Shown here: piece after piece, positions 2,716 through 62,890 of the stretch
Layout of the letters: every line of letters begins with the position of its first letter
How positions within the stretch are numbered: the first letter of the stretch is position 1
Source: a virus
IMG/VR virus record: IMGVR_UViG_3300028840_003497
Span: 32,001 to 96,000 of that record
Length of the DNA stretch: 64,000 nt
Direction: 5' to 3' (one strand)
The notes under the pieces: generated by a model
Database searches by the model: none
What the model was told of the DNA's origin: nothing
The model's input: only the letters and a program-made list of their open reading frames with translations
Program-made: the position numbers and the translations under genes

Positions 2716-3264
2716 TCACACCTTCCTGTCCGGGGTATACTGGGTACGCTTCCGCAATTCGAGCCGGTACCCAACAAACTCTGGTGAATCAAGAATGTAC
2801 CCACTTCGACCAGCTTTTACAACATCCCACCACTCACCGAACAAATAGAGCACATCACCCTCCTTCGGTTCGCGGCCTGCACACATTAAATCCTCCCAGG
2901 CACATTCCCAGTGATTTCTGGAAATCGCAATAATCGAATCATACTCGTAAACGAACCCCTCAGTCCTTACCGATGGAGTCCGGTTGTCGGATTCCTGATA
3001 TTCAATCGAGCAAGGGAACACAACGGGCTCCTCACCGGCGTCAACGTCTGGGCAGAAGTTCCATGCCTCGTCGGACACGGACGGCGCTCCACGGGCCGAG
3101 GAGCCCCCGTACAGAGGATCATTCGTGGGCTCGCCATACAGCGCATCCACATTCTTACCTCTGTTTAGAGAATAATACTCGCAGGGGGGTCCGACCAGCT
3201 CGATTCTTTCCTCTTCGAGTGATCTCAGATATGTTGCATCTTCATCAAAATATACCCGGGCCAT
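2716..3264 (-). CDS. gp14: Neck/head completion protein, T4 gp14-like
   Basis: VDALYGE motif, PKEGDVLY, position near the gp13-like gene. Confidence 0.65.
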   Translation of the reverse strand: MARVYFDEDATYLRSLEEERIELVGPPCEYYSLNRGKNVDALYGEPTNDPLYGGSSARGAPSVSDEAWNFCPDVDAGEEPVVFPCSIEYQESDNRTPSVRTEGFVYEYDSIIAISRNHWECAWEDLMCAGREPKEGDVLYLFGEWWDVVKAGRSGYILDSPEFVGYRLELRKRTQYTPDRKV

Positions 3265-3297
3265 TGACTCTCCGCTCTCTTGCCAAATATCAGCCTA

Positions 3298-4380
3298 TTA
3301 CGGAAGCAAATATACTACGCCCGCCCCTGCCTTCTTTCCCGCTTTAAGAGCGGCTTTCTTGGCGTCCTTAAGCGAACCATTGAACTTGAAAATCTCGTCG
3401 TTTGTCGGATACTTCTCATCGAATCCGAACATCCACATGGCAGATCCACCACCGCGAGGCTTCGCTCCGTGGTTATTTACATACGGGGAGATATCCACCT
3501 TAGCCTCGGTCATGTTTTCATCGTCCTTCGGATCTCCCATAGGACCTTTGCCATCCCCGCGAGCAAACCCCTTACCCTTTCCTTTGGATTTCTTCTTTTT
3601 ACCAGGAGTCTTGCAAGCCTCGCCAAACTCATCCTCTACGATCTTCGCCATCTCATTGATGTGTTTGACAGCCTCCAGCATCGCATTCAACTCGTCATCG
3701 GTGATGCGCTCATTATTGATGCGCCTGCTCATCACATTCGCCAGCTTGAGACCAATTTCCTTCTTGCCCTCCCAGCAGCGAATGCCCTTGCCATTGTGTC
3801 TGGTAGATCGCGCGCCTGGTTTTTTTGTCGAATAAAACCGGACAACGGTGTCTTCAGATTTGACCTTTACTTTGGGAACCCCAGACATATTGACGATAAC
3901 GTCAGCAATATTTTCGGCCAGCGCATGAAAAGCCTCTTTGCTACTCTCTTCAACGCTGTCGTAATAGGCCAGCATCGCAGCCTGAAGAACCTCTGGCTTC
4001 ATCACCAGGACATGGGACGCGAAGTGAACGGACGCCTGATTCTCGATCATCTTGATCTTGATTTCGCCAGGCTCCAATAACCCCAAGTTCACCACGAAAT
4101 CGTACAACTGCTGCGCGTCCATGATGCTCTCAAAATTAAAAGCTATCTCTGAGTCCGATTCCTTGCCCTGCCAAGGGTAGAGCGTGCGCTTGTCGACCAT
4201 TCGAACCAGTGGTTCCAGGGTAACAGACTGACCCAGGTTACCCTCGACAAGCCCTCTGACCCTAGATTCAAGCTTTGCGGGGTCGTTCCTTGGATCAAAC
4301 CCCATGGCCTTCCGATCCTCTGGAGTGAGGATCCCATCGACCTTAAGGGACAATTTCTTGAGTTCTTCCAAATCTAACAT
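3298..4380 (-). CDS. Hypothetical protein, possible internal head protein
   Basis: 360-aa ORF with AAGGAG RBS between the neck genes; Lys-rich segment. Confidence 0.6.
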   Translation of the reverse strand: MLDLEELKKLSLKVDGILTPEDRKAMGFDPRNDPAKLESRVRGLVEGNLGQSVTLEPLVRMVDKRTLYPWQGKESDSEIAFNFESIMDAQQLYDFVVNLGLLEPGEIKIKMIENQASVHFASHVLVMKPEVLQAAMLAYYDSVEESSKEAFHALAENIADVIVNMSGVPKVKVKSEDTVVRFYSTKKPGARSTRHNGKGIRCWEGKKEIGLKLANVMSRRINNERITDDELNAMLEAVKHINEMAKIVEDEFGEACKTPGKKKKSKGKGKGFARGDGKGPMGDPKDDENMTEAKVDISPYVNNHGAKPRGGGSAMWMFGFDEKYPTNDEIFKFNGSLKDAKKAALKAGKKAGAGVVYLLP

Positions 4381-6505: not shown

Positions 6506-8131
6506 CTACAGAGTTGTGGTTACAACCGGCAGACCAGATACTGTGATCGTGCCATAGTACTCTGGACGTAGCATCCGAGTTGCATACCGAGTCCTCACGC
6601 CCTTGCGGAACGTGAAATCATTTGGATCGAGGAAGGTCGGGGTGACCTGCAGCGGCACGTAGGGTGCGTAAACGTACCCAGCGTCGATGAAGGAATTACC
6701 CTTGAGACCGACCAGGATCTGGTTGGCAGGCATGTACGGATCTTGGTAAACTGCATACTTGCGCAGCAGCGTTCCGATCCGGGCAATACCGTAGTTGGCA
6801 GTAACAGGACCGTAGCTCGCAGCCTGTACATTCTGCTCGATGCTGGCAAAGTCTCCATGCGTCGAGAGCTGATCAAGCAACCCACCAATGCCCGGGGGTA
6901 CAACAATAAAGTTGGCCGGGGCACGTCCTGATGTCCTGTGGATCTCTGCCGAGAGCGCACTGATCTGCGTGATCAACTGACGGATGCTCTCAATCTCACC
7001 CGGGATACCTGGAGCATAAGTGTACGGAATCGAATGCGCCGCCCCATTGACGAGGTCAGTAATGATCTCGCGGTCCACTTCCAGCATAACCTCATTGGAG
7101 AATGTGCTTACCAACTCAGCCTCTGCGTCCATCCCGTGCAATGCACGAAGATCATCCACAGCCTCTACTGTCCAGCGAGCCTTCAGTTTGCGACTCTCAG
7201 CCTGCACAGTGTGAAGAGCGATATCCAAGCTGATGCTGGGAATCTCCGCTCCATCGGTGTAGCCAACCAATTCCCAATTCACAAAGTACTGGAAATAGAT
7301 GACTGTGTTGTTGGTGAAGTTGGAAGCCGATCCACCGGATCCGAGAGGAGTAACCGCCCACTGACCGTTGGTCACATCAAACGTACCACAGACCTGAGTT
7401 CCCGATGGGTTCAGATCGTCGATGAGGTTACCAGCATCGTTCATCGTTGCTTCGACCTCTGTCGGAGCATTTGCATTGTCCGCATCGTTGCAGCGGAAGA
7501 ATGCCTTCACGTAGAACGTGCGCTGTCCAGCAGTTCCGTTTGCACGGATTGGCGACCAGTCGGTCACTGCACAATTGGTCGAACCCTGGTTCAGGGTCGC
7601 CGTGGCAGTTCCAGTGTCTGTACAGACAGCATCGTAGTCGTTGAACTCAGAGCTGTAGTACTTCGCAAAGTTCTGGTTAAGATTGTCCCCAGCTTCCAAC
7701 TCGCCACCATAAGCCATGTCGGTCGGGTTGTTGGCGATCGCAGCCTGTGGCAGTTTGGTGCCTTTGCGTCCGTCATACTTTTTCTCGTAGTAGAAAACGC
7801 CTCCAATGGGGGACGTCATCGGCTGAACCGATACCAGCTGGTTGGCGATCAAGTTCGGGAAAACCCGACGCAGGATCGGGAACACATATTTCGTGAACGC
7901 GCCAGCGTTTGTGCTCAGGGTGTCCTCATGGAAAGACTTGATGTGCTCCATCTCGTTTTCCAGAAGAATCGCCGTCGCTTTTTTGGTGTATCCGTTGTCG
8001 TGTTGAACCGGAATACCCTCCAGAAGATCGCCCCATTTGCCAACGCATGCGCCAGCGTAGCTGTTATCGTGGATGGTTTTCGGTCCGGCTTGCTCCAGGA
8101 TTGCCCTGGCTTCTGTGCTTTCGATGCCCAT
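6506..8131 (-). CDS. gp23: Major capsid protein, T4 gp23-like
   Basis: KW..LLEG, LLEN, RRVFPNLIA..LVSVQPMTSP.G..FY, SRKLKARWT.E...DL.A.HGMDAEAEL, DAGYVYAPYVPL, TRY. Confidence 0.95.
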   Translation of the reverse strand: MGIESTEARAILEQAGPKTIHDNSYAGACVGKWGDLLEGIPVQHDNGYTKKATAILLENEMEHIKSFHEDTLSTNAGAFTKYVFPILRRVFPNLIANQLVSVQPMTSPIGGVFYYEKKYDGRKGTKLPQAAIANNPTDMAYGGELEAGDNLNQNFAKYYSSEFNDYDAVCTDTGTATATLNQGSTNCAVTDWSPIRANGTAGQRTFYVKAFFRCNDADNANAPTEVEATMNDAGNLIDDLNPSGTQVCGTFDVTNGQWAVTPLGSGGSASNFTNNTVIYFQYFVNWELVGYTDGAEIPSISLDIALHTVQAESRKLKARWTVEAVDDLRALHGMDAEAELVSTFSNEVMLEVDREIITDLVNGAAHSIPYTYAPGIPGEIESIRQLITQISALSAEIHRTSGRAPANFIVVPPGIGGLLDQLSTHGDFASIEQNVQAASYGPVTANYGIARIGTLLRKYAVYQDPYMPANQILVGLKGNSFIDAGYVYAPYVPLQVTPTFLDPNDFTFRKGVRTRYATRMLRPEYYGTITVSGLPVVTTTL

Positions 8132-8162
8132 TTCTTTTCTCCTCGTTCGTGGTTGTGACAGC

Positions 8163-9788
8163 CTAATCCAGATTTCCTAGACCGGCCAAGCGCTTCATGT
8201 AGGACATATCGTTCCCTAGATCATCGCTCCTACGACGCATGGAAACTTTACTTTCGTCCTCATTCAGCTGTTCCTGCTCCTGCCGCTCACCCATGCCACG
8301 CTGTAGTTTTCTGCGCGCATCCATGAGTTGCTGCTCAGAGACATCTCGGACTCCCTTCTCCGTCACCAACTTGTCAACCACGGCCTCCGAGGATACATCC
8401 TCTAATAGACCAAGCAACTGTCTACCATTTGCCAACCCAACAACCTTGTCGTGCTTATAGACCTCAATCTTGAGCGTGCGCTTTGCCTCTTCGGCTTCCT
8501 CCAGCGCCTTTGCCCGAGACTCCTCAGCCTCTTGCACGCGGCTCTCAGCATCTGAACGCTGAGCATCTGCCTCCATACCTACTTCTACAGCTTTCTTCAG
8601 TTTCGCATTCAACGATTCTACCCTCTCCGTGAGGAGGGACAATTTCTCTATCATTACTGCGTTTTCTGCCAGCAGTTCGGCATCTTCTTTTGTAACCATT
8701 CCCTCGTCGGTCCTCTCGGGCAGGTCCGCGAGGATCGTAGCGAGTTTCTCTTTGGCATCGTCCAGGTCTACAAATTTATGCTTCGCGACCAATTTACGAA
8801 TAGACTCTGCCATCGGATGCCCACCAATTTCGCGCTCTATGTACTCCATGCACTCAGCACGGACAGCACGCTCTTCATTCTTCTCTGCCGACTCCATAGC
8901 CTCGGCAACTTCGATATCTTTGGCTTTCGCTGCATCCGCCAATGCTCGCTCGTCCTCAGTCGCCTGGAACGGAGCTACCATCTCCCAAATAGCCGAGAGA
9001 ATCGCTTTCGATCCTCCAATGTCCGGATCGGATGCATACTCCTCGCGCAACTCGCTAGAGATGTCTTCCTTGGCCTCCAAGAGCCCCTCAGCGAGCTGTT
9101 TCTGGAACGCCTCGGACATCTCATCTCGCACACGCTGTTCGGCCTCAGCAACCGCCTCGTCGACGCCCTTGTTGACCTTGATCTTCGCCTTGGAAATCGC
9201 ATCCTCTTGCAGGGATGAAGCTACCTCGGGAAACTCGTCAAGAAACATCTGCGCGATGTCAGGCTGGTTCTCGTCAACATCCTCAGTAAAAATACCAGGA
9301 ACCGCCGACTTTACCGCTGGATCGGCCACGAAGTCCCAGGTCTTTAGAACGAAATCATCCTGAACAACCTCTCCCTCTGTCTTGGGATCATGGGACGGCT
9401 TGGTAGATCCAAAGCCACGAGATGAAATGCCTATCTGCACGTTTGCTTCGATCAACGCCTTCAGAGTCTTTCCCTCTGGAGTGTTCAGGATCTCAGCCTC
9501 TCCGACAACGACACCATCCTTTATCTTAAGACCAGTAATAACGTGTGACACACGCTTCAGACTCGTCTTGCCATCTGTTGGATGATCCAATTCACCCAAG
9601 ACCCTCCGTGAAGATATATCCTCGGACAGGCGTTTAATCTCGCGAAGCATCAGTGTCTCTGGATAAATACGGCCATTCTGTGTGGGAACACCAACACGAC
9701 CAAATTCACCGCGAGCTATTACTTTGCCGCCAGCCGCCTCGGTAAGGGTAAGCTGTACTGGACTCGATTCGATTAAAAGATTCGGCAT
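8163..9788 (-). CDS. gp21: Prohead protease (gp21-like) fused to acidic coiled-coil scaffold (gp22-like)
   Basis: NGRIYP, LGELDHP, VSH.I, GISSRGFG, WDFVADP, followed by about 370 aa of E/A/K-rich helix. Likely start MPNLLIE at 9788 after AAAGGA. Confidence 0.85.
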   Translation of the reverse strand: MPNLLIESSPVQLTLTEAAGGKVIARGEFGRVGVPTQNGRIYPETLMLREIKRLSEDISSRRVLGELDHPTDGKTSLKRVSHVITGLKIKDGVVVGEAEILNTPEGKTLKALIEANVQIGISSRGFGSTKPSHDPKTEGEVVQDDFVLKTWDFVADPAVKSAVPGIFTEDVDENQPDIAQMFLDEFPEVASSLQEDAISKAKIKVNKGVDEAVAEAEQRVRDEMSEAFQKQLAEGLLEAKEDISSELREEYASDPDIGGSKAILSAIWEMVAPFQATEDERALADAAKAKDIEVAEAMESAEKNEERAVRAECMEYIEREIGGHPMAESIRKLVAKHKFVDLDDAKEKLATILADLPERTDEGMVTKEDAELLAENAVMIEKLSLLTERVESLNAKLKKAVEVGMEADAQRSDAESRVQEAEESRAKALEEAEEAKRTLKIEVYKHDKVVGLANGRQLLGLLEDVSSEAVVDKLVTEKGVRDVSEQQLMDARRKLQRGMGERQEQEQLNEDESKVSMRRRSDDLGNDMSYMKRLAGLGNLD

Positions 9789-9792
9789 TGTA

Positions 9793-9990
9793 TCATCCTT
9801 TTTTGCCAGTCTTGCTTCTCCAACGCCGGATGCGTGTTCTAGCAAGCGGGTTCCTGTCGAGCTTACGCTTGGCTTCCGGGGAGACTCGTCGATCTGTCTT
9901 TTTCCCATCACCGCGAGCAGCTTTCTTGAGCGACTCAAACCCTACCAGCTCCTTTCGCCCCGACGGAGTTCCCGTGCGACGTCGCCACAC
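9793..9990 (-). CDS. Small very basic protein (possible core/DNA-binding peptide)
   Basis: Fills the gap exactly between the 10011 stop and the protease start; R/K-rich. Confidence 0.45.
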   Translation of the reverse strand: MWRRRTGTPSGRKELVGFESLKKAARGDGKKTDRRVSPEAKRKLDRNPLARTRIRRWRSKTGKKG

Positions 9991-10010
9991 GGCTTCACCG
10001 AGACGGCTTG

Positions 10011-11003
10011 TCAGTTTCCCAACGTGTCCTCACCACCGATTCGATCCAAAGATTTATGGATCAGAGTGAGCACAGGTTTGATCTCCGATATGAACTCGTC
10101 CACTTCCATCACATCTTCGTCGATCCTACCGGCATCCCAGGACGCCAAGACAGGCTCGTAAGCCTCTGTGAAAACGCGGGTCACGGCCTCGTCGTTGAAC
10201 TCCTCGGAAAGGAGATCGAACACATTGCCGATCATCTCAATCAACTCATCGCGCAGAGTCTCGGATGCTTCCTGGCTGTCCTCCATGAGACCCATCAGCT
10301 CGGCTGCGAACGGAGACTCGACTCCCTCTCGCCTGGCCGCCACACGAGCAGATTTGCGCTCAGATTTCTTGCCAGCGCCACCCTTCGCCCACTTTTTCTT
10401 TTTGCGACTTTCCTTGGCCACTTTACCTGCTCCGCCCATCGCCTTCACGGTGGGCTCACATCCTGGTTTCCCCTTCTTGGCGCGAGTACCCTCGGGACAC
10501 TGCCTGGATTTCTTTTTCGTAGTCTTGCCAGCCACGTGACGCCTGACAACCTTGGCGGCCCTCTCGGCAATCAGGAAGTCGACGACCTCCTCGGCCCGCT
10601 CCTTCAGCTCATCAGAAGCATCCTCTGGGAGTTCCTTGGACTTTAGTGCCTCCAGGATCTCATCGATGTCCTCAGACTTGAGACCCTCAAAAGGAATCTC
10701 CATAATAGCATCGAAAAGCTCGATGTTGACCCCGACAGCCTCCAAGGGATCGATGCTTTCATCCTGATCGTCGCCCTCTTGGTCATCGTCCTCGGCCTTC
10801 TTGTACCCACACTTTGTACACTTGCCGTCCTTCATGTCGGCCTTGCACTTCGGGCACATCTTGTCCTCTTCCTCAACAGAATCATTGGTGCCCTCGGTCA
10901 GCGGGATGCCGCCGAGTAGTGCTTGCTCCTGCATGTTGAATCCTGGAATACCAAGGCCCTGCAGATCCTCATCGAGAGAGGTGTTGATGGTACGCTTTCC
11001 CAT
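10011..11003 (-). CDS. Putative prohead core protein (Zn ribbon, acidic and very basic segments)
   Basis: GAGGAG RBS; CPKC...CTKC; K/R-rich RQCPEG segment; lies between portal and protease like T4 gp67/68. Confidence 0.55.
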   Translation of the reverse strand: MGKRTINTSLDEDLQGLGIPGFNMQEQALLGGIPLTEGTNDSVEEEDKMCPKCKADMKDGKCTKCGYKKAEDDDQEGDDQDESIDPLEAVGVNIELFDAIMEIPFEGLKSEDIDEILEALKSKELPEDASDELKERAEEVVDFLIAERAAKVVRRHVAGKTTKKKSRQCPEGTRAKKGKPGCEPTVKAMGGAGKVAKESRKKKKWAKGGAGKKSERKSARVAARREGVESPFAAELMGLMEDSQEASETLRDELIEMIGNVFDLLSEEFNDEAVTRVFTEAYEPVLASWDAGRIDEDVMEVDEFISEIKPVLTLIHKSLDRIGGEDTLGN

Positions 11004-56107: not shown

Positions 56108-56304
56108 CCATCCTTTTCAATATCCACGAGCGATACCGTGACCGAAGAAGGAAATTCGCTACTGGGATTTAGCGCCTTTAAAACCACCATCCTGCGAGAC
56201 GGAAATCTCTCGATTATATACTTATCTGTCGTTCCGATATTCTTCACGACAACCTTGTCATCGACCGAAAAATCACCAACACGCTTCCTTCTGCCTTTCG
56301 TCAT
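56104..56304 (-). CDS. Small hypothetical protein (SH3-like)
   Basis: GGAGG RBS, overlapping the recA stop. Confidence 0.55.
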   Translation of the reverse strand: MTKGRRKRVGDFSVDDKVVVKNIGTTDKYIIERFPSRRMVVLKALNPSSEFPSSVTVSLVDIEKDG

Positions 56305-58499
56305 TACTCCTCCGCGTCTATGCCCTCCAGCATATACTTCATAAGAACCTTCTTCATTTTATCGAACACCTCTGGATTCTCAATTCTCGCGAGCGCCGAA
56401 CCCTTTTTCTGGAACTCCTCGTCACCTACAAACCATGTTTTTTTACTACCATCCTTCTTCTCACGAAAGAGGCCGTACTTCATGGCCTGATCAAGCACGT
56501 ATTTTAATTCCTCTACCATCCCCTGTCGAGCCCCGACAACACGCATAACGTAACTACCGGTAGCCTGCGAAGCCGCAGTCTTGTTCTTGATAATCTTAAA
56601 GTTCATCTGAACTTCCTTGCCAACCTCCAGTTGAAAGTTTTTCTTAAGATCTGAGTCAAACGTCTCCTTCTCCCAATTCGACGGCCACATCGAAACGATC
56701 ACTGAGGATCCAAACTTCTGCCCCATCCCAGCTGGCATGATGCTCCCTGGGCCAAACTTCGCCATCGACATACGCTCCTGGTTGATCCATATTTGTGTAA
56801 CAAGCTTTCCAAAATCACGTTTCACATCAATAACTGACGCCGTAACCTTTCTCACGAATTTATTAATCAGCTTGGCCTGCGCCGCTCTCTGCTCGTCCTC
56901 CGTGCTTGCCTCCACCTCGATGCTCGGTGTCATCGCCGCTACCGAATCCAAGATAAAGAGATCAATCGCTCCAGTTCTCATCATTTCGTCGTAGAGGTCG
57001 ATTCCCTCCTCTGCCGTCGAAGGGTCAACGACAAGCAGAAGCCGCGTATCCACTCCAACGCGCTTAGCCCATGCAAGATCTAGGGTACCCTCGTGATCGA
57101 AGAACGCAACTCGAAACTCCTCGTAACTGTTTTCCTCGTACCGCTTGATGCGCTCCTTGAACGCAGTGGTCTTTTTATTCTTGGTCTTTCCGGTTTTCTC
57201 GTCGGTGACCTCGACCTCGATCTGCTTATGAGTCCCTTTCTCCCGGTTGGAGAAATCCTCCGGATACGGTACCGGCTTGAAGATTCCATTTTTATAACAG
57301 TCGCATGTTCCATGCGCCTCGTATTCAATCTCTCCTGTGTCCTCGTCAAAGCCGGTCTCCACAACCGTAATGTCATCGACGAACCGAAGGCAATTCGCAC
57401 ACAGCTTCTGAGCTATGGCACCAACGCGAAGCGCCTGCGTAGTCTTCCCAGAATTATGAACAACCAGACCATTAGCCACGTAATTATTATAGGGATATGC
57501 ACACTTGAGATCATAGGTTTCAAACTCACCCACTCTCTCGATTTTAGTAATTTCAGACTCGGCAACAACAAAACTCAAATTAGCCAGTCGATCCACTATG
57601 TGCAACGCCCCATGCTCGGACGGATCAATCAACCTAAGATTGTCAATACCATTATTATTGAAATCCTCATCCTCATGATGAACATGAATATGATCAGGAA
57701 GAACAACCAATCCATCGATCTCTGTTTTGGATTTTGTATTTAAGAAATCACGATATTTCTCAAAAGACATGCCATTCAAAAACGCCTCATATACCATCCT
57801 GGACTTCTGGATACGACGGTATGGATAATCCTTGCCCATCTTGGAACAATGAACAATCTTCACGGGAGCAATCGGGTGATACTTGACACATACACCATTC
57901 CTCGTTGTCGCTTTTTTTCTACCAACTTTTCTTGTATTATTATGCACAAAAACTTTCGAACCAACCTTTAATTCACCCAATGGACTAAACCCATCTGGCG
58001 TCATATATTTGTGATCCATTGTGCTTATCAAAAATTCCCCTGTTGACACCTCAACTCGATAGCACATTTTAACACCTGTCCTGACCACATCCAACACCTT
58101 GTTTCTCACAATACAACCATCGTGGTTCACGGACTTCACATAAAAATCAACATCCCCCCTCAGTGCAACCTTGCCGCGCATGTCCGATGCATCCACAAGT
58201 TCACCACTGAACCTCTCGTATAACCTCCGAATCGTGCCCCCTTTTTTGTTTACTACCTCCCCATCCATGGAAACAACATCATATCTCAAAAAACTATCTC
58301 CAGAGATGCACGACTCAGCACCACGAAAAATAGTCAACCTGCCAACAGGGACACCACCACCAAGAGCTACGTCAAAATTCAAGCTACCGGTCAGAAGACG
58401 ATCCATGTCATGAGGCTTCATATTAGCAGCCAACCCAATGGTTCGACCGAGCTTGTTGTTGACGGATTTTTTGAACGCTTTCAGTATCTTACCACGCAT
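56304..58499 (-). CDS. recA: RecA/UvsX recombinase with P-loop intein and Cys-containing insertion (spliced ~445 aa)
   Basis: TGSL.FD.ALGGG.P.GR, GAES|SGKTT, FFD.EG.LD..WA...GVD, LDSVAAM.P..E, A.QA.L, INQ.R. Confidence 0.92.
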   Translation of the reverse strand: MRGKILKAFKKSVNNKLGRTIGLAANMKPHDMDRLLTGSLNFDVALGGGVPVGRLTIFRGAESCISGDSFLRYDVVSMDGEVVNKKGGTIRRLYERFSGELVDASDMRGKVALRGDVDFYVKSVNHDGCIVRNKVLDVVRTGVKMCYRVEVSTGEFLISTMDHKYMTPDGFSPLGELKVGSKVFVHNNTRKVGRKKATTRNGVCVKYHPIAPVKIVHCSKMGKDYPYRRIQKSRMVYEAFLNGMSFEKYRDFLNTKSKTEIDGLVVLPDHIHVHHEDEDFNNNGIDNLRLIDPSEHGALHIVDRLANLSFVVAESEITKIERVGEFETYDLKCAYPYNNYVANGLVVHNSGKTTQALRVGAIAQKLCANCLRFVDDITVVETGFDEDTGEIEYEAHGTCDCYKNGIFKPVPYPEDFSNREKGTHKQIEVEVTDEKTGKTKNKKTTAFKERIKRYEENSYEEFRVAFFDHEGTLDLAWAKRVGVDTRLLLVVDPSTAEEGIDLYDEMMRTGAIDLFILDSVAAMTPSIEVEASTEDEQRAAQAKLINKFVRKVTASVIDVKRDFGKLVTQIWINQERMSMAKFGPGSIMPAGMGQKFGSSVIVSMWPSNWEKETFDSDLKKNFQLEVGKEVQMNFKIIKNKTAASQATGSYVMRVVGARQGMVEELKYVLDQAMKYGLFREKKDGSKKTWFVGDEEFQKKGSALARIENPEVFDKMKKVLMKYMLEGIDAEE
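57453..58310 (-). mobile_element. Intein in RecA Walker A (286 aa) with HNH endonuclease
   Basis: GAES|CISGDS...TMDHKY...HVHHEDEDFNNNGIDNL...EH...H...TYDL...VVHN|SGKT. Confidence 0.92.
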
Positions 58500-58590: not shown

Positions 58591-59574
58591 TCAGACCTTT
58601 ACACAAACCGACAAGTATGGCGCTGTCTTTGCCGCTTCGGACAAGACCATCTGGCCTGCCATAGCAGTCGAGCCTGGCGACCCGACCGTCAAAAACTTGT
58701 AGCCCTGCATCTGATCGTCGACGGTTCCGAGCAAGAACTTATCCTCGCGCAACTTTCCGACCAGCCGTTTGGTCCTGTCCTCGGCCACGCGCATCGACGC
58801 CTGCAACGCCGCACGAATACCGTCAAGGCTCTTTTCTTCGATCTCCAAAGGCCCCCTACCCGGCTGCGACTCTCCGGCGTACCGAATCGCAAACGATCCG
58901 TAGCACACTCGAACCAGCGGGTTCCACAGGGCCTTCCAGAATTCGACCGTAGGAGCCATCTCGACACCAACAAGCTTCCCGTTGACCAGAATTACCGCAC
59001 CGATCTGATTAGGCACCAGTTCAAACTCAGCAACGAACTCGTCAAGCTGCTTTGAATAATTATTCAGAAACAGGACAAGGTTCGAGGATCCGTGTGAGAG
59101 ACCATACCCATGGATAAACTCACCTATGGCACCCCACAGCTTGTTGTACTGCTTCTGCTTCCGCATGGCGAGAGCACTCGCACGCAACTGCGCCGGAAGA
59201 ATGAGCATATCGTGATCACCGTGAGAGATCAGACCTCCCTGGCTCTGCTGGATACACATCGCTGTGTCGATTCGCTTGGACGAGTTCCCATCCACAAATC
59301 CACCACTCCCCAGCGCGTGATCCTGCGCGGCCTGCTTAACAACCCAACCAGCCCCTGTCGGGATGATCGTCGGATTCTCACCAGGATGACGCAAATCTAC
59401 GGTACCATAATCGGATGTTCCGACACTTATTCCGCTGGGAGGATCGAAACTATCGTCCTGTACTCCACCCTCGTCAACCAGCGGAATCACCTCCATGTTT
59501 CCTACGCTCTGAGAACGCCCATGTCCGACTCCGAACAGGATGTCTTCCATCGATACGCTTTGACGTGTCGTCAT
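58591..59574 (-). CDS. ARPP-like (DUF6569-type) protein
   Basis: G..Q.VGNM.VIPL, Y..V.L, K.AAQD, CIQ.SQ, LW..I, EFE.VP.Q.GAV.L.NG..VG.E..P...FW; ATGA overlap with the upstream vWA gene. Confidence 0.55.
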   Translation of the reverse strand: MTTRQSVSMEDILFGVGHGRSQSVGNMEVIPLVDEGGVQDDSFDPPSGISVGTSDYGTVDLRHPGENPTIIPTGAGWVVKQAAQDHALGSGGFVDGNSSKRIDTAMCIQQSQGGLISHGDHDMLILPAQLRASALAMRKQKQYNKLWGAIGEFIHGYGLSHGSSNLVLFLNNYSKQLDEFVAEFELVPNQIGAVILVNGKLVGVEMAPTVEFWKALWNPLVRVCYGSFAIRYAGESQPGRGPLEIEEKSLDGIRAALQASMRVAEDRTKRLVGKLREDKFLLGTVDDQMQGYKFLTVGSPGSTAMAGQMVLSEAAKTAPYLSVCVKV

Positions 59575-61175
59575 GACTCACCTCCAATCAGGGCTAGACT
59601 CTCGATGGTCGAGCCCTTCAAAGCATTCCTGACCAGGGTGTTAATGCCTGTCTCTGGATCCGTCTCCAACAGCCCGCGCAACATAGTCGTTGCGAGCGCC
59701 GCCGGGGTCCTCACCGGCATCGTAGTTGCACCCTCGATCTTATCACATAATTGCCGCACTGCGCCTCCCTCGGCAGCGAACACCGGGTTCATATGAAACA
59801 CTGGTGTCTTGATCCCGACACCACGAGCCGCCACCAGAACATCCTGGAAGCGCCCTGCAGGCGCGTTCTCGTACCCGTCCGACAGGACGTAAACCACCTC
59901 GGGCTCTCGCCCCAGAACGGCCAGGAGACCCTCAGCAAGCGAAGTGTCTCCTTGCGGCCTAACGATCCGATGATCCTCTCCAAGAACCCCTCCGCAGTAC
60001 ACAACCTCGCACTGAGACGCCGTCTTCTCCAGCATATCCCGCAGCGCCAGAGTGGCAGCCAACGGACGCAGATGCTGAGTCCTGTCCCCAGCCATAGATG
60101 CCGAACCGTCAACCACAATACCTACTCGATCATATTTGACCGGCAGAGCAGCCGCAGCAGCCTCCGCCTTCGTATCCAACGCATCGAACACCTTCTTGTC
60201 CGCTCCGTTTTCGAAAGCATATATGTATAAATCCACCGGATCGTACCGGGTGGGATCCATCTTAACTTCGACACCAGCAGCCTTGGCCCGCTTCTGAACC
60301 GTCCTACGCTCACCAGTTGTCATCGTGCCAGACGCAGCCTTCACCTTCAGAATATCCTCCGGCTTCACGCCCGGGTGGTACATGCTCCGAATACCCTCCA
60401 ACACCTCGGTCGGCAACTTCTCACCAGCCTTTATATCTATCTTCGCGTCCACGAATGCCTGGAACAACCGGATTGAAAGATCGACCCGCTTCCCGCTCAG
60501 AAAGGCCAAACACTCAACTACATACGGTTCCTTGTTCAATCCACGAAACTTGAACACGTGATCCTTGAAAATCGCTTTTTCCTTCGCCGTCCAGCGACGC
60601 CGATCCTTCTGAGCAATCGAACCGATGATACTGAACCGACGCTGCCCCCACGCATGCGCGAGTGCCCGTGCCATTTTGCCCCGGTACTTGAGCGTCCAAA
60701 GATCGAGCCGCTTCGCACCAATCAGCGAGGACAGAATAAGCTTCCGCGTCCTGGCATTGTTCGCCTTCGTGACGCCAAATTCATCTCCCTGTCCACGAAA
60801 CGCATCGAACAAACGAAACATCCTCGGTGCCGGAAGGTGATCGACCAAATGGACTAGTACTTCCCTCTCCAACTTCGGATTCAGAAAAACATCCGCATCT
60901 GGAGTACGCGGATTCGAAAGCAGCCTCCCAATTCCAATCTGACGGGCGTGGTCGGCCACCCCTGGCAGCAACAACATCGCCAAGTAAATGTCCCGGCTCA
61001 TCACGAACAACTCGCCGTGGACCGCCATCTCGGCAGCCTTCTGTTCTTCTTTCGTGTTGTAATGGGTCGCCCGGCCAAACGAAGTAGTCGCCGTGTCCAG
61101 AAAATTACACACTTTCTGGCTCGCCTCGACCGGCTGAATTTCATTCCCGCTTTTCCACAATGTGACGCTATTCAT
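59571..61175 (-). CDS. Ro60/TROVE-like helical domain plus C-terminal vWA protein
   Basis: Basic all-helical N-terminal ~345 aa; vWA MIDAS VVDGSASM, GDTSL, VLSDGYEN; GGAGG RBS. The vWA call is firm; TROVE is inferred from architecture and the neighbouring RNAs. Confidence 0.6.
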   Translation of the reverse strand: MNSVTLWKSGNEIQPVEASQKVCNFLDTATTSFGRATHYNTKEEQKAAEMAVHGELFVMSRDIYLAMLLLPGVADHARQIGIGRLLSNPRTPDADVFLNPKLEREVLVHLVDHLPAPRMFRLFDAFRGQGDEFGVTKANNARTRKLILSSLIGAKRLDLWTLKYRGKMARALAHAWGQRRFSIIGSIAQKDRRRWTAKEKAIFKDHVFKFRGLNKEPYVVECLAFLSGKRVDLSIRLFQAFVDAKIDIKAGEKLPTEVLEGIRSMYHPGVKPEDILKVKAASGTMTTGERRTVQKRAKAAGVEVKMDPTRYDPVDLYIYAFENGADKKVFDALDTKAEAAAAALPVKYDRVGIVVDGSASMAGDRTQHLRPLAATLALRDMLEKTASQCEVVYCGGVLGEDHRIVRPQGDTSLAEGLLAVLGREPEVVYVLSDGYENAPAGRFQDVLVAARGVGIKTPVFHMNPVFAAEGGAVRQLCDKIEGATTMPVRTPAALATTMLRGLLETDPETGINTLVRNALKGSTIESLALIGGES

Positions 61176-61214
61176 AACGCACCTCCAGCTCTGAAACTGT
61201 CATCAGATGTTGTG

Positions 61215-61300
61215 GGGATTGATAAATCCGAGGGAGCGTGGAAGTCGATCTATGTTTTAATGTAACTGAAACGACTTCTCAGTCCTCGAACGTTTAATCA
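61215..61300 (-). ncRNA. Structured RNA 2 (Y-RNA-like hairpin, no tRNA module)
   Basis: UUCGAGG/CCUCGGA stem, internal loop ACUGA/CACGCUC, GAAGUCG/CGACUUC stem, apical region UUUCAG-UUACAUUAAAACAUAGA; shares motifs with RNA 1. Confidence 0.55.
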
Positions 61301-61301
61301 G

Positions 61302-61436
61302 AAAAAAAGCGCCGAGAGAGTGGGTGAGGCATTGTGGTTGACAAAACAAGATTTGAACTTGCTACTGTCGGATTTAATGTCCGATGCTCTACCAAATGAG
61401 CTATTCGCCTGAAATGTCTCTCTAGTCCTCAGCGCC
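61302..61436 (-). ncRNA. Structured RNA 1: tRNA mimic (anticodon UUA, 61335-61410) inside a Y-RNA-like closing stem, ending in U7
   Basis: GCGCUGAG/CUCGGCGC terminal stem; cloverleaf GGCGAA-UA-GCUC AUUUGGUA GAGC-A-UCGGA CAUUAAA UCCGA-CAGUA-GCAAG UUCAAAU CUUGU-UUUGUC-AA-CCA. Confidence 0.75.
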
Positions 61437-61441
61437 TGGGG

Positions 61442-61470
61442 AATCTAACTCCGCCCACAGCATTTGTCAA
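61442..61470 (-). promoter_or_regulatory. sigma70 promoter driving the ncRNA/TROVE-like operon
   Basis: TTGACA-17 nt-TAGATT with A-rich UP element at 61474-61488; predicted +1 near 61436 coincides with the 5' end of the RNA 1 stem. Confidence 0.75.
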
Positions 61471-61521
61471 CATGTTTTTTTGTTTTTTCTCCTAATCAAC
61501 TGAGCGCACGCTCTCCGCTCA

Positions 61522-62550
61522 TCATCCAGCCTTCCAACTCTTCGACATCTTCAACAGGGCTTTAGCATCAGCCTTCCCCTCCGGGGTGAGCCTGTGCATG
61601 TGTTTGTCCAGAAAGTCTTTCAATATCGAATTCGGTTTCTTCTTTCGGACAAGGCTAAACTTCAGTTTTGCCACCCGATTCTGATTCACCGGCATCTCCA
61701 TCAATTTATCAGTAACCCTCTGTGGAGCTTGGATCGCGCCAGACCGAAAAACAACCTGGCCACTAACCATCGAAGGCTTGAATTTCTTCGCGATCCGCAT
61801 GGGCACTTTGTCCATGTACCCAGCGTCCTTGGCAACCACATCCTTGACCTTCAACTTATCCCAACTCTCCAAAATCTTGGACGCCGTGTACACCACATCG
61901 AAATCCCTCGGAACCTTCCGATCCCGGTCCAACTCGATAAATTCCGGCTTGAAGTTGTACGCATACTGCAGCCCATCCACCACCGACACAAAGTGGCCTC
62001 CGACGTAGACCTCACCCCTGGGTCGATCCAAAACATCTCCGTATTCGGTCGAGTGCAAAACGTCAATTTCAGGATCCAACTGCTTCTCCCTGTAGACTAT
62101 GAAATCATTACGAGGAACCTGAAACTCAATCTCGAATCCATGCAAAGTATGATCCATATCATAGACCCTGTACCCGAAACACTCGCCGAGATACGGATCG
62201 TCGTAGAACATACCGGCCAGCTTTGTGGACCCGTACCGAATAATAACATTGCAATCGTTCCGCAACAGAACCATGGAGGCCATCTTGAGACCCTCACCAT
62301 GCTTCCCGACGGCACTCGCATCTCCGCGCTTCCCGGATTCTCCGATCTTCATAAACCCGTGATCGTCAGGCAAATAGTCGTTTATCATCTTGACGCTGCA
62401 CAGTTTTGGATCCCCATCGACATCATTAACCCTCTGATCGAACGATCCAAAGTCCATAAAGTTCTGGTTAATCTCCCGAAGTGCCTCAGAAAAACCCCAG
62501 TCGGGGAGGTAGTTCCTGCTCATCCCGTACTTTATAACGTGATCATCCAA
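61522..62550 (-). CDS. GHKL (HSP90/MutL-like) ATPase
   Basis: Y..DWG..EALREI.QN..D, IG.S.K......GKHGEGLK.A..VL.R; TTG start after AAGGAG. Confidence 0.8.
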   Translation of the reverse strand: MDDHVIKYGMSRNYLPDWGFSEALREINQNFMDFGSFDQRVNDVDGDPKLCSVKMINDYLPDDHGFMKIGESGKRGDASAVGKHGEGLKMASMVLLRNDCNVIIRYGSTKLAGMFYDDPYLGECFGYRVYDMDHTLHGFEIEFQVPRNDFIVYREKQLDPEIDVLHSTEYGDVLDRPRGEVYVGGHFVSVVDGLQYAYNFKPEFIELDRDRKVPRDFDVVYTASKILESWDKLKVKDVVAKDAGYMDKVPMRIAKKFKPSMVSGQVVFRSGAIQAPQRVTDKLMEMPVNQNRVAKLKFSLVRKKKPNSILKDFLDKHMHRLTPEGKADAKALLKMSKSWKAG

Positions 62551-62554
62551 AGTC

Positions 62555-62890
62555 CTACTCCTTGTCAATACTGATCTCGGTGATCCGATCCTTGGACGCC
62601 TTGATCTTGAGAAAAACCAACCCGTCCCGGATACCTGCCTTGATCGTCCGCAGGTCGAACTGCGGAGAAACCGATATCTTCTCCGTAATGGAGAGGTCAA
62701 CCTTCTCCTCAAACTCCTCGGGAAGATCCGGAACACCGACCTCTAAATGGATCGTTCCACCACAAACCTCACTCGTCTTCGGACCGACATCCGTGTGAAT
62801 CGTCGTGTTGTCCTTGGTCGCTCCAGGCGCGGCCACCATAATTGTCAGCTCCTTGAGAGTCTCCACCCTCACCACATTGCTGTCGCTCAT
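62555..62890 (-). CDS. Small heat-shock protein (Hsp20/alpha-crystallin)
   Basis: ET.KEL.I.V..PG..K, D...IKA...DGL..L.I, C-terminal ISI motif; AAAGGAG RBS. Confidence 0.65.
   Translation of the reverse strand: MSDSNVVRVETLKELTIMVAAPGATKDNTTIHTDVGPKTSEVCGGTIHLEVGVPDLPEEFEEKVDLSITEKISVSPQFDLRTIKAGIRDGLVFLKIKASKDRITEISIDKE

What the first reader, a model, noticed from the sequence alone, without database searches (positions are those of the whole stretch)
58591..61490. Candidate phage ribonucleoprotein system: promoter, two related structured RNAs, TROVE-like/vWA protein and ARPP-like partner
Seen: a clean TTGACA-17-TAGATT promoter whose predicted +1 lands on the 5' end of a ~135-nt end-paired RNA. 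A second ~85-nt hairpin RNA follows, then a 534-aa helical+vWA gene, coupled by an ATGA overlap to a 327-aa ARPP/DUF6569-like gene. Known: Ro60/Rsr proteins are TROVE+vWA, bind adjacently encoded Y RNAs through an end-paired bulged stem, and are often linked to RtcB; rtcB lies about 4 kb downstream here. Inference: this is a divergent phage Ro-like RNP with its own RNA family and a dedicated partner protein, acting in RNA repair or as a decoy against host tRNA-targeting defences. I could not find the classical Y-RNA GGUCCGA motif, so the RNA class may be new.
Basis: partly seen in the sequence, partly recalled or inferred. Interest (0 to 1): 0.9.

Follow-up and report, generated by a model that had tools for sequence, protein, structure and literature searches.

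The report
Diverged phage Ro60 particle, tRNA-mimic RNAs
A 176-kb phage carries a very diverged cousin of the RNA-surveillance ring protein Ro60, an enzyme-like partner (ARPP-1) that always accompanies it, and small RNAs that mount a tRNA look-alike on a shared stem. This looks like an undescribed branch of the known Ro60/Y-RNA machines, and it recurs in hundreds of phage and bacterial loci.

Summary
A TTGACA-17-TAGATT promoter starts a ~135-nt end-paired RNA (61436-61302). A ~70-nt second RNA (61290-61224) uses the same scaffold: stem P1, an internal loop with ACU, stem P2, then UUUCAG. The 534-aa protein matches no Pfam TROVE or Ro60-vWA model. Its AlphaFold model aligns end to end with Ro60 (Z 17.9; the ten best PDB hits are all Ro60/Rsr) and keeps an invariant MIDAS motif. 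The ARPP-1 gene, joined by an ATGA overlap, follows the Ro-like gene in all 25 viral loci and 30 of 31 bacterial loci within 32-50% identity with enough downstream DNA. The scaffold recurs upstream on the gene strand (44 units; 13 of 14 pairs with compensatory changes). Cargo anticodons are hypervariable (20 distinct in 22). RtcB linkage is not conserved; tRNA arrays are the usual neighbours.

Verdict: a diverged Ro60/Y-RNA particle with a new partner and a new RNA handle. Its function (tRNA-centred conflict or repair) is inferred only. This scan noted the same module on at least 7 other genomes. I found no paper that describes it.

The parts
61442..61470 (-). Sigma-70-type promoter: -35 TTGACA (61470-61465), 17-nt spacer, -10 TAGATT (61447-61442). 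Predicted +1 at about 61436-61434.
   Evidence: (10 of 12 matches) and the sequence. The -35 TTGACA is kept at the same place in L001-L003 and before RNA3.
61302..61436 (-). Y-like RNA1 (~135 nt). P1 pairs 61436-61427 with 61317-61308. The 5' internal loop is ACUA. P2 pairs 61420-61415 with 61331-61326 (one A.C mismatch). UUUCAG follows, then the tRNA-like cargo, a 3' internal loop and a U7 tract.
   Evidence: Family alignment A4: 94.8% of cells paired against 36-45% when partners are slid, and 22 of 27 pairs with compensatory changes. The scaffold model R1 matches it at 22.4 bits, E 0.003.
61335..61410 (-). Cargo of RNA1: a complete, unpermuted tRNA-like cloverleaf. Anticodon loop CAUUAAA (anticodon UUA, A33), A1:A72 mismatch, encoded A-CCA.
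   Evidence: Rfam tRNA 52 bits over model positions 1-71; ARAGORN. Loop statistics across homologues.
61224..61290 (-). Y-like RNA2 (~70 nt). P1 pairs 61290-61284 with 61233-61227. The 5' loop is ACUGA. P2 pairs 61278-61272 with 61247-61241. UUUCAG follows, then a plain apical loop that contains ACAUUAAA, a 3' loop CACGCUC and a short U tract.
   Evidence: It seeded model R1 (80.8 bits). A9: 92.2% paired and 13 of 14 pairs compensatory.
59571..61175 (-). Ro60-like protein, 534 aa: helical TROVE-like ring (about residues 15-342) plus vWA domain (348-530) with MIDAS residues D356-x-S358-x-S360, T411 and D433. GGAGGT Shine-Dalgarno sequence at 61186-61181.
   Evidence: No Pfam TROVE or vWA_Ro60 hit. 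676 clusters at 50% identity in 1.84 billion proteins.
58591..59574 (-). ARPP-1 partner, 327 aa, translationally coupled by an ATGA overlap, with a GGAGGTG Shine-Dalgarno sequence inside the end of the upstream gene. Invariant residues include Q84, H86, C107, E185 and E205.
   Evidence: AlphaFold pLDDT 91.2. No solved fold relative (best Z 4.2).

Best explanation
The stretch is one minus-strand cassette that encodes a diverged Ro60-type ribonucleoprotein. A host-type promoter drives two small RNAs and, by read-through of their U tracts, the two protein genes.

Both RNAs share a 'handle': terminal stem P1, an asymmetric internal loop that begins with ACU, stem P2, then UUCAG. By analogy with Y RNAs, I infer that this handle is the binding site for the Ro-like ring protein. 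The handle carries exchangeable cargo. In RNA1 the cargo is a whole tRNA look-alike; in RNA2 it is a plain loop. A third RNA just beyond the window carries a circularly permuted tRNA look-alike.

The ARPP-1 protein is translationally coupled and always co-inherited. I take it to be the particle's effector or partner subunit, probably docked on the vWA/MIDAS face (inferred). The tRNA-like cargo presents a tRNA body with a freely varying anticodon loop to factors that recognise tRNA.

The most likely role is in tRNA-centred conflict or quality control during infection. The particle could bait or sequester enzymes that act on anticodon loops, or it could bring ARPP to damaged tRNA. This fits the phage's tRNA, tmRNA and RtcB region.

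Shown: the fold, the gene coupling, RNA structure conservation and co-occurrence. Inferred: RNA-protein binding, ARPP docking and the biological role.
For: Protein fold
- AlphaFold model pLDDT 84.7.
- The Foldseek top 12 are all Ro60, Rsr or TROVE entries.
- VIA-align Z 17.9 over both domains against Xenopus Ro60, 16.2 against phage phiLo Ro60 and 12.6 against D. radiodurans Rsr. The next hits are vWA-only, Z 11.7 or lower.
- The BFVD top hits are phage 'Ro-like RNA binding' or TROVE proteins.
- The MIDAS residues are invariant.

Partner
- ARPP-1 matched in 21 of 21 downstream genes.
- It lies directly downstream in all 25 viral loci and in 30 of the 31 bacterial loci at 32-50% identity whose held DNA runs past the Ro-like gene. 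The exception, L046, has its ARPP-like frame overlapping the Ro frame by about 550 nt and was not looked at further. Three more loci of that range end at the Ro-like gene (L037, L048, L050).
- No other protein neighbour is conserved.
- The ATGA overlap is confirmed.

RNAs
- A4, 22 tRNA-cargo units: 94.8% of cells paired against 36-45% when slid, and 22 of 27 pairs compensatory. P2 and the three tRNA stems were not used to pick the units.
- Scaffold model R1, built from 5 short units, finds 44 full-length matches in 56 sources, 43 of them on the gene strand. 13 of 14 pairs are compensatory.
- R1 finds nothing convincing within 1.5 kb of canonical Rsr genes.
- Some bacterial homologues carry the YrlA-like order T arm, closed acceptor hairpin, D arm. 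So does RNA3 of this phage, with its own promoter and terminator.

Cargo
- 20 distinct anticodons in 22 units; 7 of 22 lack U33.
- Anticodon entropy is 1.93 bits against 0.44 for the T loop.
- In nine near-identical Pirellulaceae units, 5 of 7 anticodon-loop columns vary against 11 of 109 elsewhere (Fisher p 5e-4).

Context
- tRNA arrays flank the module in phages and bacteria.
- A tmRNA and further tRNAs lie next to RNA3.
- Precedent: Ro60 with Y RNAs in phages, and tRNA-like YrlA (PMC4201824, PMC12135203, PMC7824862).
Against: - No sequence-level link to Ro60. No Pfam TROVE or vWA_Ro60 hit at E<=1 in 40 family members and none in the whole phage genome. Profile-profile comparison with two canonical Rsr proteins gave only a weak vWA match (probability 1.6%, E 0.03). 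The assignment therefore rests on a predicted structure plus context.
- The known Ro-binding motifs (GGUCCGA, GNCGAAN0-1G, CGAA) are absent.
- No binding, expression or processing data exist, and the host is unknown.
- The window's own RNA1 has an A.C mismatch in P2, and its minimum-energy fold uses a slightly different register.
- P1 pairing was a selection criterion in my first unit search, so the P1 pairing percentage in A4 is partly circular.
- RtcB linkage is not conserved.
- ARPP has no solved relative and no assayed activity.
Confidence: 0.8

Rival explanations
1. RNA1 is simply the precursor of a working ochre-suppressor tRNA (anticodon UUA). RNase P and RNase Z would cut it from long flanks, and the phage would use it to read UAA codons. 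On this reading, the neighbouring genes are unrelated to it.
For: Rfam scores it as a full tRNA (52 bits). ARAGORN calls it tRNA-Stop. A73-CCA is encoded. Large phages are known to carry suppressor tRNAs (general knowledge).
Against: - It has A33 instead of the near-universal U33, and an A1:A72 mismatch.
- 30 of 126 long ORFs of this phage end in TAA, and table-11 ORFs of at least 200 aa cover 79% of the genome, so there is no sign of UAA recoding.
- The same positions in homologues carry 20 different anticodons, and 7 of 22 lack U33.
- The flanks are a conserved, covarying scaffold. RNA2 shares it without any tRNA, and permuted cargoes that cannot yield a tRNA share it too.
Confidence: 0.04
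2. The structured RNAs are cis-acting leader elements (attenuators or sensors) that control transcription of the Ro-like/ARPP operon. They would not be stable trans-acting partners of the protein.
For: RNA1 and RNA2 lie between the only predicted promoter and the genes, and each ends in a U tract. Gene expression therefore needs read-through. No separate promoter-like site was found for the genes.
Against: - RNA3 of the same phage has the same handle with its own promoter and U8 terminator, about 3 kb away and not in front of the genes.
- Other loci have 1-4 tandem units, some more than 500 nt upstream.
- The cargo is tRNA-like, as in YrlA RNAs, which are stable Ro60 partners and in Salmonella are encoded within the rsr-yrlBA-rtcBA operon (PMC4201824).
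- Both roles could coexist.
Confidence: 0.08
3. The two proteins are a vWA-ARPP conflict module of the kind seen in ARG (ADP-ribosylglycohydrolase)-centred systems. It would act on ADP-ribose or peptides. The helical N-terminal domain would not bind RNA, and the upstream RNAs would be by-products of the surrounding tRNA arrays.
For: Iyer et al. 2022 (PMC9503650) describe ARPP and vWA proteins in the same ARG-centred neighbourhoods and propose that ARPP acts on ribose moieties. There is no sequence similarity to TROVE. The loci sit in tRNA arrays.
Against: - The fold match covers the helical ring as well as the vWA domain, and only Ro60-family entries match both.
- The scaffold RNAs are not tRNA debris. 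They have a conserved non-tRNA handle with compensatory changes, and 43 of 44 lie on the gene strand.
- No ARG, phosphatase or other protein neighbour is conserved.
Confidence: 0.06

Closest known systems
Bacterial Ro60 (Rsr) with YrlA/YrlB Y RNAs (Salmonella rsr-yrlBA-rtcBA; M. smegmatis; mycobacteriophages; Chen et al. 2014, PMC4201824)
   Same: A ring-plus-vWA protein is encoded next to two or more small RNAs whose 5' and 3' ends pair. One RNA carries a tRNA-like domain and a shorter one does not. Such loci occur in phages and can lie near RtcB.
   Different: - No Pfam TROVE or vWA_Ro60 signature.
- The handle motif is GRGR-ACU...UUCAG instead of GNCGAAN0-1G.
- RNA1's tRNA mimic is unpermuted and complete, with the stem on the acceptor end and an anticodon arm. 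YrlA has the order T arm, acceptor hairpin, D arm, with the Ro stem in place of the anticodon arm.
- An obligatory ARPP-1 partner, which was not found next to the canonical Rsr genes examined here.
- RtcB linkage is not conserved.
Thermus phage phiLo Ro60 with Yrl1/Yrl2 (PDB 9KOP, 9L5Y; PMC12135203)
   Same: A phage-encoded Ro60-fold protein with Y-like RNAs directly upstream. Structural match Z 16.2-16.8. That study shows RNA binding and formation of a complex with host PNPase.
   Different: The phiLo RNAs use the CGAA bulge motif, and no tRNA cargo or ARPP partner is reported. Here binding and host partners are unknown.
Deinococcus radiodurans Rsr with Yrn1 and PNPase (the RYPER complex)
   Same: Yrn1 has the D-then-T order relative to its 5' end and a possible anticodon-like arm (PMC4201824). 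This is the same orientation as RNA1's cargo. Fold match Z 12.6.
   Different: Yrn1 is only partly tRNA-like (no full D arm, a 6-nt loop). Rsr there is a Pfam-positive TROVE protein, and there is no ARPP.
ARPP-1/ARPP-2 proteins of ARG-centred conflict systems (Iyer et al. 2022, PMC9503650)
   Same: The partner matches PF20208 (E 1.4e-26) and keeps an invariant Cys and Gln residues. vWA proteins also occur in those systems.
   Different: That paper lists ARG systems plus three two-gene contexts for ARPP (HIRAN, WYL, deacetylase). A Ro60-like/Y-RNA context is not among them.

Membership tests
Ro60/Rsr (TROVE + vWA) | HEAT-repeat TROVE ring followed by a vWA domain (overall fold) | tested here: met
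   The AlphaFold model (pLDDT 84.7) aligns over residues 20-505 with Ro60 residues 28-537: Z 17.9, 408-417 residues, rmsd 4.5. The Foldseek top 12 are all Ro60, Rsr or TROVE. This rests on a predicted structure, not a solved one.
Ro60/Rsr (TROVE + vWA) | Sequence signature: Pfam TROVE PF05731 and vWA_Ro60 PF25045 | tested here: not met
   No hit at E<=1 in any of 40 family members, none in the phage genome and none in six distant members. Canonical Rsr proteins from the same bacterial genomes score 148-173 bits (TROVE) and 217-229 bits (vWA_Ro60). hhalign gives only a weak vWA match.
Ro60/Rsr (TROVE + vWA) | MIDAS motif in the vWA domain | tested here: met
   D356, S358, S360, T411 and D433 are invariant in 40 sequences. 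In hhalign they align with DVSGSM of canonical Rsr.
Ro60/Rsr (TROVE + vWA) | Adjacent small RNAs with a 5'/3' terminal stem interrupted by a bulge or internal loop | tested here: met
   (covariation; 43 of 44 units on the gene strand).
Ro60/Rsr (TROVE + vWA) | Physical binding of the RNA by the protein | not testable with these tools
   Needs pull-down, gel-shift or structural work.
YrlA-type Y RNA | tRNA-like domain with T and D arms, encoded next to a Ro60 homologue | tested here: met
   Rfam tRNA 52 bits inside RNA1. The D and T stems covary across 22 units.
YrlA-type Y RNA | Permuted order (T arm, closed acceptor-like hairpin, D arm), with the Ro-binding stem at the anticodon-arm position | tested here: not met
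   RNA1 has the normal tRNA order with the handle on the acceptor end and a full anticodon arm. The permuted order is seen in RNA3 of this phage and in the myxobacterial units, but those keep an anticodon arm.
YrlA-type Y RNA | 5' motif GNCGAAN0-1G / CGAA (PMC4201824, PMC12135203) | tested here: not met
   The conserved 5' motif here is G-R-G-R-ACU, then 7-11 nt, then U-N-CAG (invariant G9, A11, C12, T24, C26 and G28 in A5). Rfam reports only the tRNA match.
Functional (suppressor) tRNA | U33, a paired 1:72 position, an anticodon conserved among orthologues, and a genome that needs the decoding | tested here: not met
   A33 and A1:A72. 20 anticodons in 22 homologous units. TAA ends 30 of 126 long ORFs.
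ARPP-1 (PF20208) | Profile match above the curated cut-off, with the conserved Cys and Gln | tested here: met
   93.9 bits against a cut-off of 27. 21 of 21 partners match. C107, Q84 and Q22 are invariant.
ARPP-1 (PF20208) | Association with ARG or rhodanese-phosphatase genes (the context that named the family) | tested here: not met
   The only conserved protein neighbour in the 58 loci compared is the Ro-like gene.

The most novel reading that the evidence does not exclude
The particle could be a programmable 'anticodon display' machine. The Ro-like ring holds a constant RNA handle, while the tRNA-shaped cargo shows an anticodon loop that diversifies quickly between lineages. Each variant would bait, titrate or report on a particular anticodon-directed nuclease or tRNA-modifying enzyme of a rival (host defence, or a competing phage or bacterium). 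The Cys/His/Gln enzyme-like ARPP subunit would then chemically act on the captured RNA or protein, for example by reversing or trapping a ribose-linked lesion. That would be a new kind of RNA-guided decoy or sensor, shared by large phages and tRNA-array islands of Myxococcota and Planctomycetota.
Probability: 0.2. Interest if true: 0.85.

Novelty: new variant of a known kind. Interest (0 to 1): 0.72.

Why it matters
Ro60/Y-RNA particles are conserved from bacteria to humans, yet what they do in bacteria and phages is still poorly understood. This module would add three things:

- A whole sister family of Ro-like proteins that profile searches miss: 676 clusters at 50% identity, found in large phages and in Myxococcota and Planctomycetota.
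- A second RNA 'handle' that can be compared with the classical Ro-binding motif.
- A fixed enzyme-like partner (ARPP-1) whose biochemistry is unknown and whose fold has no solved relative.

The cargo has a conserved tRNA body and an anticodon that varies almost freely. Together with the constant placement in tRNA arrays, this gives a concrete and testable link between Ro-type particles and conflicts over tRNA. It also warns annotators that some phage 'suppressor' or odd-anticodon tRNA calls are really Y-RNA cargo.

Tried and rejected
- Sequence routes to Ro60 all failed. Pfam on the protein and 40 relatives gave nothing. PDB sequence searches with the protein and with a profile gave no relevant hit. 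hhalign against two canonical Rsr proteins gave a weak vWA match only. PHROGs had no family for either protein.
- Rfam at gathering and at relaxed thresholds finds only 'tRNA'. No Y_RNA-like family matched in the window or in 12 loci.
- The RtcB association was rejected as a family feature. RtcB lies within 6 kb only in L001.
- An all-against-all search for conserved neighbours found nothing beyond the Ro-like/ARPP pair, apart from spurious overlapping frames.
- ARPP fold searches found no PDB relative (Foldseek best E 0.016; VIA-align wide best Z 4.2).
- The idea that RNA1's anticodon loop and RNA2's apical loop always show the same sequence was rejected. The shared ACAUUAAA is unique to this phage. 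Other same-locus pairs share 3-5 nt, no more than cross-locus pairs.
- Model R1 did not recover RNA3, even with filters off. RNA3 rests on direct reading and a fold.
- A loose regex scan of the whole genome gave mostly false positives and was dropped.
- The GenBank phage collection has no DNA match and only one protein match, an unannotated 462-kb uncultured phage.
- The Burroughs & Aravind 2016 paper on RNA repair systems is not held in the library and could not be checked.


Full report
**What is there.** All features lie on the minus strand. ORF listing gives a 534-aa gene (59571-61175) and a 327-aa gene (58591-59574). They overlap by ATGA, and a GGAGGTG ribosome-binding site lies inside the end of the first gene. 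Upstream there is a -35 TTGACA (61470-61465), a 17-nt spacer and a -10 TAGATT (61447-61442). The promoter scan finds no excess of such sites in this region. However, the same -35 box sits at the same place in the three closest relatives and in front of a third RNA of this phage. The predicted start (~61436) is the first base of a 10-bp terminal stem, GGCGCUGAGG with UCUCGGCGCU, which is followed by U7. The window is part of a complete 176,267-bp virus record with terminal repeats.

**RNA1 contains a tRNA look-alike.** Rfam scores 61410-61338 as a full-length tRNA (52 bits, E 2.2e-10). ARAGORN calls it 'tRNA-Stop' with anticodon UUA. It has A33 instead of U33 and an A1:A72 mismatch. TAA ends 30 of 126 long ORFs of the phage, and standard-code ORFs cover 79% of the genome. 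A working ochre suppressor is therefore unlikely. RNA2 (61290-61224) has the same outer architecture as RNA1 but only a plain apical loop.

**The 534-aa protein is Ro60-like by fold only.** Pfam, PHROGs and PDB sequence searches gave nothing. None of 40 relatives reaches Pfam TROVE or vWA_Ro60, even at E<=1. An AlphaFold model built on 40 homologues (pLDDT 84.7) shows a helical domain (to about residue 342) plus a vWA domain. The Foldseek top 12 are all Ro60, Rsr or TROVE entries. VIA-align gives Z 17.9 over 408-417 residues spanning both domains against Xenopus Ro60. It gives 16.2-16.8 against Thermus phage phiLo Ro60 and 12.6 against Deinococcus Rsr. The best non-Ro hits cover only the vWA part (Z 11.7 or lower). 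The best viral predicted structures include a Gordonia phage 'Ro-like RNA binding protein' and TROVE proteins. The MIDAS residues D356, S358, S360, T411 and D433 are invariant.

Canonical Rsr proteins exist in the same bacterial genomes. In Minicystis rosea one lies about 4 kb upstream in the same tRNA array. A profile-profile comparison with these proteins found only a weak vWA match. The family is therefore a distinct, deeply diverged sister of Ro60 and not a mis-scored orthologue. It is sizeable: 676 clusters at 50% identity with E<=1e-3, and 343 at E<=1e-30. It occurs in 25 IMG/VR contigs of 37-436 kb and in 38 species genomes, mostly Myxococcota and Planctomycetota. GenBank phages hold only one unannotated match.

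**The partner.** The 327-aa protein matches ARPP-1 (PF20208, E 1.4e-26). An ARPP-1 gene lies directly downstream of the Ro-like gene in all 25 viral loci. The same holds in 30 of the 31 bacterial loci at 32-50% identity whose held DNA extends past the Ro-like gene. The exception is L046, where an ARPP-like frame overlaps the Ro frame by about 550 nt; I did not examine it further. Three more loci of that range end at the Ro-like gene. The four most distant relatives (24-28% identity) lack ARPP. No other protein neighbour is conserved. RtcB lies within 6 kb only in the closest relative. The ARPP model is confident (pLDDT 91.2) but has no solved structural relative. Q84, H86 and C107 are invariant, which fits the conserved Cys and Gln that Iyer et al. 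noted when they proposed an enzyme acting on ribose moieties. That paper does not list a Ro-like context (PMC9503650).

**The RNA family.** Upstream of nearly every homologue, on the gene strand, lie 1-4 units. Each is built as follows:
- stem P1
- a 5' loop that starts with ACU
- stem P2
- U-N-CAG
- cargo
- the 3' strand of P2
- a 3' loop
- the 3' strand of P1
- usually a U tract

In an alignment of 22 units with tRNA cargo, 94.8% of cells pair, against 36-45% when the partners are slid. 22 of 27 pairs show compensatory changes. This includes P2 and the D, anticodon and T stems, which played no part in choosing the units. A covariance model of the handle alone was built from five short units of related phages. 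It retrieved 44 full-length matches in 56 sources, 43 of them on the gene strand. The matches include the window's RNA1 and units from Planctomycetota and Myxococcota. 13 of 14 pairs are compensatory. The model finds nothing convincing beside canonical Rsr genes.

The known Ro-binding motifs (GNCGAAN0-1G, CGAA; PMC4201824, PMC12135203) are not conserved here. The invariant letters are G-R-AC and U-CAG.

**Cargo types.** The window's RNA1 and most phage units carry a normally ordered, complete cloverleaf. Several myxobacterial units carry the order T arm, closed acceptor hairpin, D arm, which characterises YrlA, while still keeping an anticodon arm. A third RNA of this phage does the same. It lies at about 96,700-96,850 on the minus strand of the genome, 0.7 kb beyond the window, and has its own TTGACA promoter and U8 terminator. 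This ties the family to YrlA-type Y RNAs and also sets it apart from them.

**Anticodon loops.** The loop keeps 7 nt and usually a purine at position 37, but the triplet is almost random: 20 different anticodons in 22 units, entropy 1.93 bits against 0.44 for the T loop, and 7 of 22 units lack U33. In nine near-identical units from different Pirellulaceae genera, 5 of 7 loop columns vary against 11 of 109 elsewhere (Fisher p 5e-4). Either the triplet is unconstrained or it is under diversifying selection. In both cases these RNAs are not ordinary decoders.

**Context.** The module sits in or beside tRNA gene arrays in both phages and bacteria. In this phage the order is RNA3, tmRNA (Rfam 96 bits), tRNA-Met, tRNA-Ile, a phage protein, RNA1, RNA2, Ro-like, ARPP, RecA with an intein, a resolvase, then RtcB.

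**Reading.** The evidence supports a Ro60-type particle with its own RNA handle and an obligatory ARPP subunit. Several steps are inferred: that the ring binds the handle, that ARPP docks on the vWA/MIDAS face, and that the tRNA-like cargo engages enzymes that recognise tRNA. The biological role is also inferred; candidates are a decoy or sensor for anticodon-directed attack, or delivery of ARPP to damaged tRNA.

**Prior art.** Phage Ro60 with Y-like RNAs and tRNA-like YrlA are published (PMC4201824, PMC7824862, PMC12135203). My searches found no paper that links ARPP to Ro-like proteins or describes this handle. Earlier notes of this scan report the same module on at least seven other genomes with the same reading. 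My analysis was done independently and agrees with them.

Noticed in passing
G000:C1 ~96700-96850 (-), i.e. L071 ~700-850; 0.7 kb beyond the window end: A third Y-like RNA of the same phage. It has an almost identical handle (GGCGCUGAGAACUAGAGAGAGACUUCAG ... CUCGGCGC-U8) and its own TTGACA-17-TATAAC promoter. Its cargo is a circularly permuted tRNA mimic: anticodon arm with GAU, T arm, closed acceptor hairpin, D arm.
   Followed up: partly
L071:316-693 (-) = G000 96316-96693: A phage-encoded tmRNA (Rfam RF00023, 96.3 bits; also called by ARAGORN) lies directly downstream of RNA3, followed by tRNA-Met. The relative L001 also has a tmRNA call about 3 kb upstream of its cassette.
   Followed up: partly
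window 61380-61373 and 61263-61256 (-): The anticodon loop of RNA1 and the apical loop of RNA2 share the 8-mer ACAUUAAA. No other locus shows such sharing, and about 1% of cross-locus pairs reach 7 nt or more. It is therefore either a lineage-specific feature or chance.
   Followed up: yes
window 56304-58499 (-): The RecA-like gene (731 aa) is interrupted by an intein with an HNH-type endonuclease segment (Pfam RecA 3.5e-32, Intein_splicing 2e-08, HNH_3 0.004).
   Followed up: no
L065 / L027 (Minicystis rosea CP016211, ~8.2568-8.2634 Mb): A canonical Pfam-positive Rsr (TROVE 148 bits, vWA_Ro60 217 bits) and the Ro-like/ARPP pair lie about 4 kb apart inside one large tRNA array. The two Ro paralogues therefore coexist in one locus.
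   Followed up: partly
L013-L017 (Ro-like ORFs of 709-760 aa): One viral clade has an N-terminal extension of about 190 aa on the Ro-like protein. The extension has no Pfam match (tested on L013:5626-6300).
   Followed up: partly
L038 (Stieleria magnilauensis) 3117-3704 and 8001-10334: The cassette is flanked by an Endonuclease V homologue and a HIT-PLD-helicase (ResIII) fusion protein, next to a DDE transposase. This suggests a mobile nucleic-acid repair or conflict island. Only one locus was examined.
   Followed up: no
window 61522-62736 (-): The 404-aa gene directly upstream of the promoter matches only phrog_6077 (unknown function, E 2.5e-42). It is syntenic only in the two closest relatives.
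   Followed up: no
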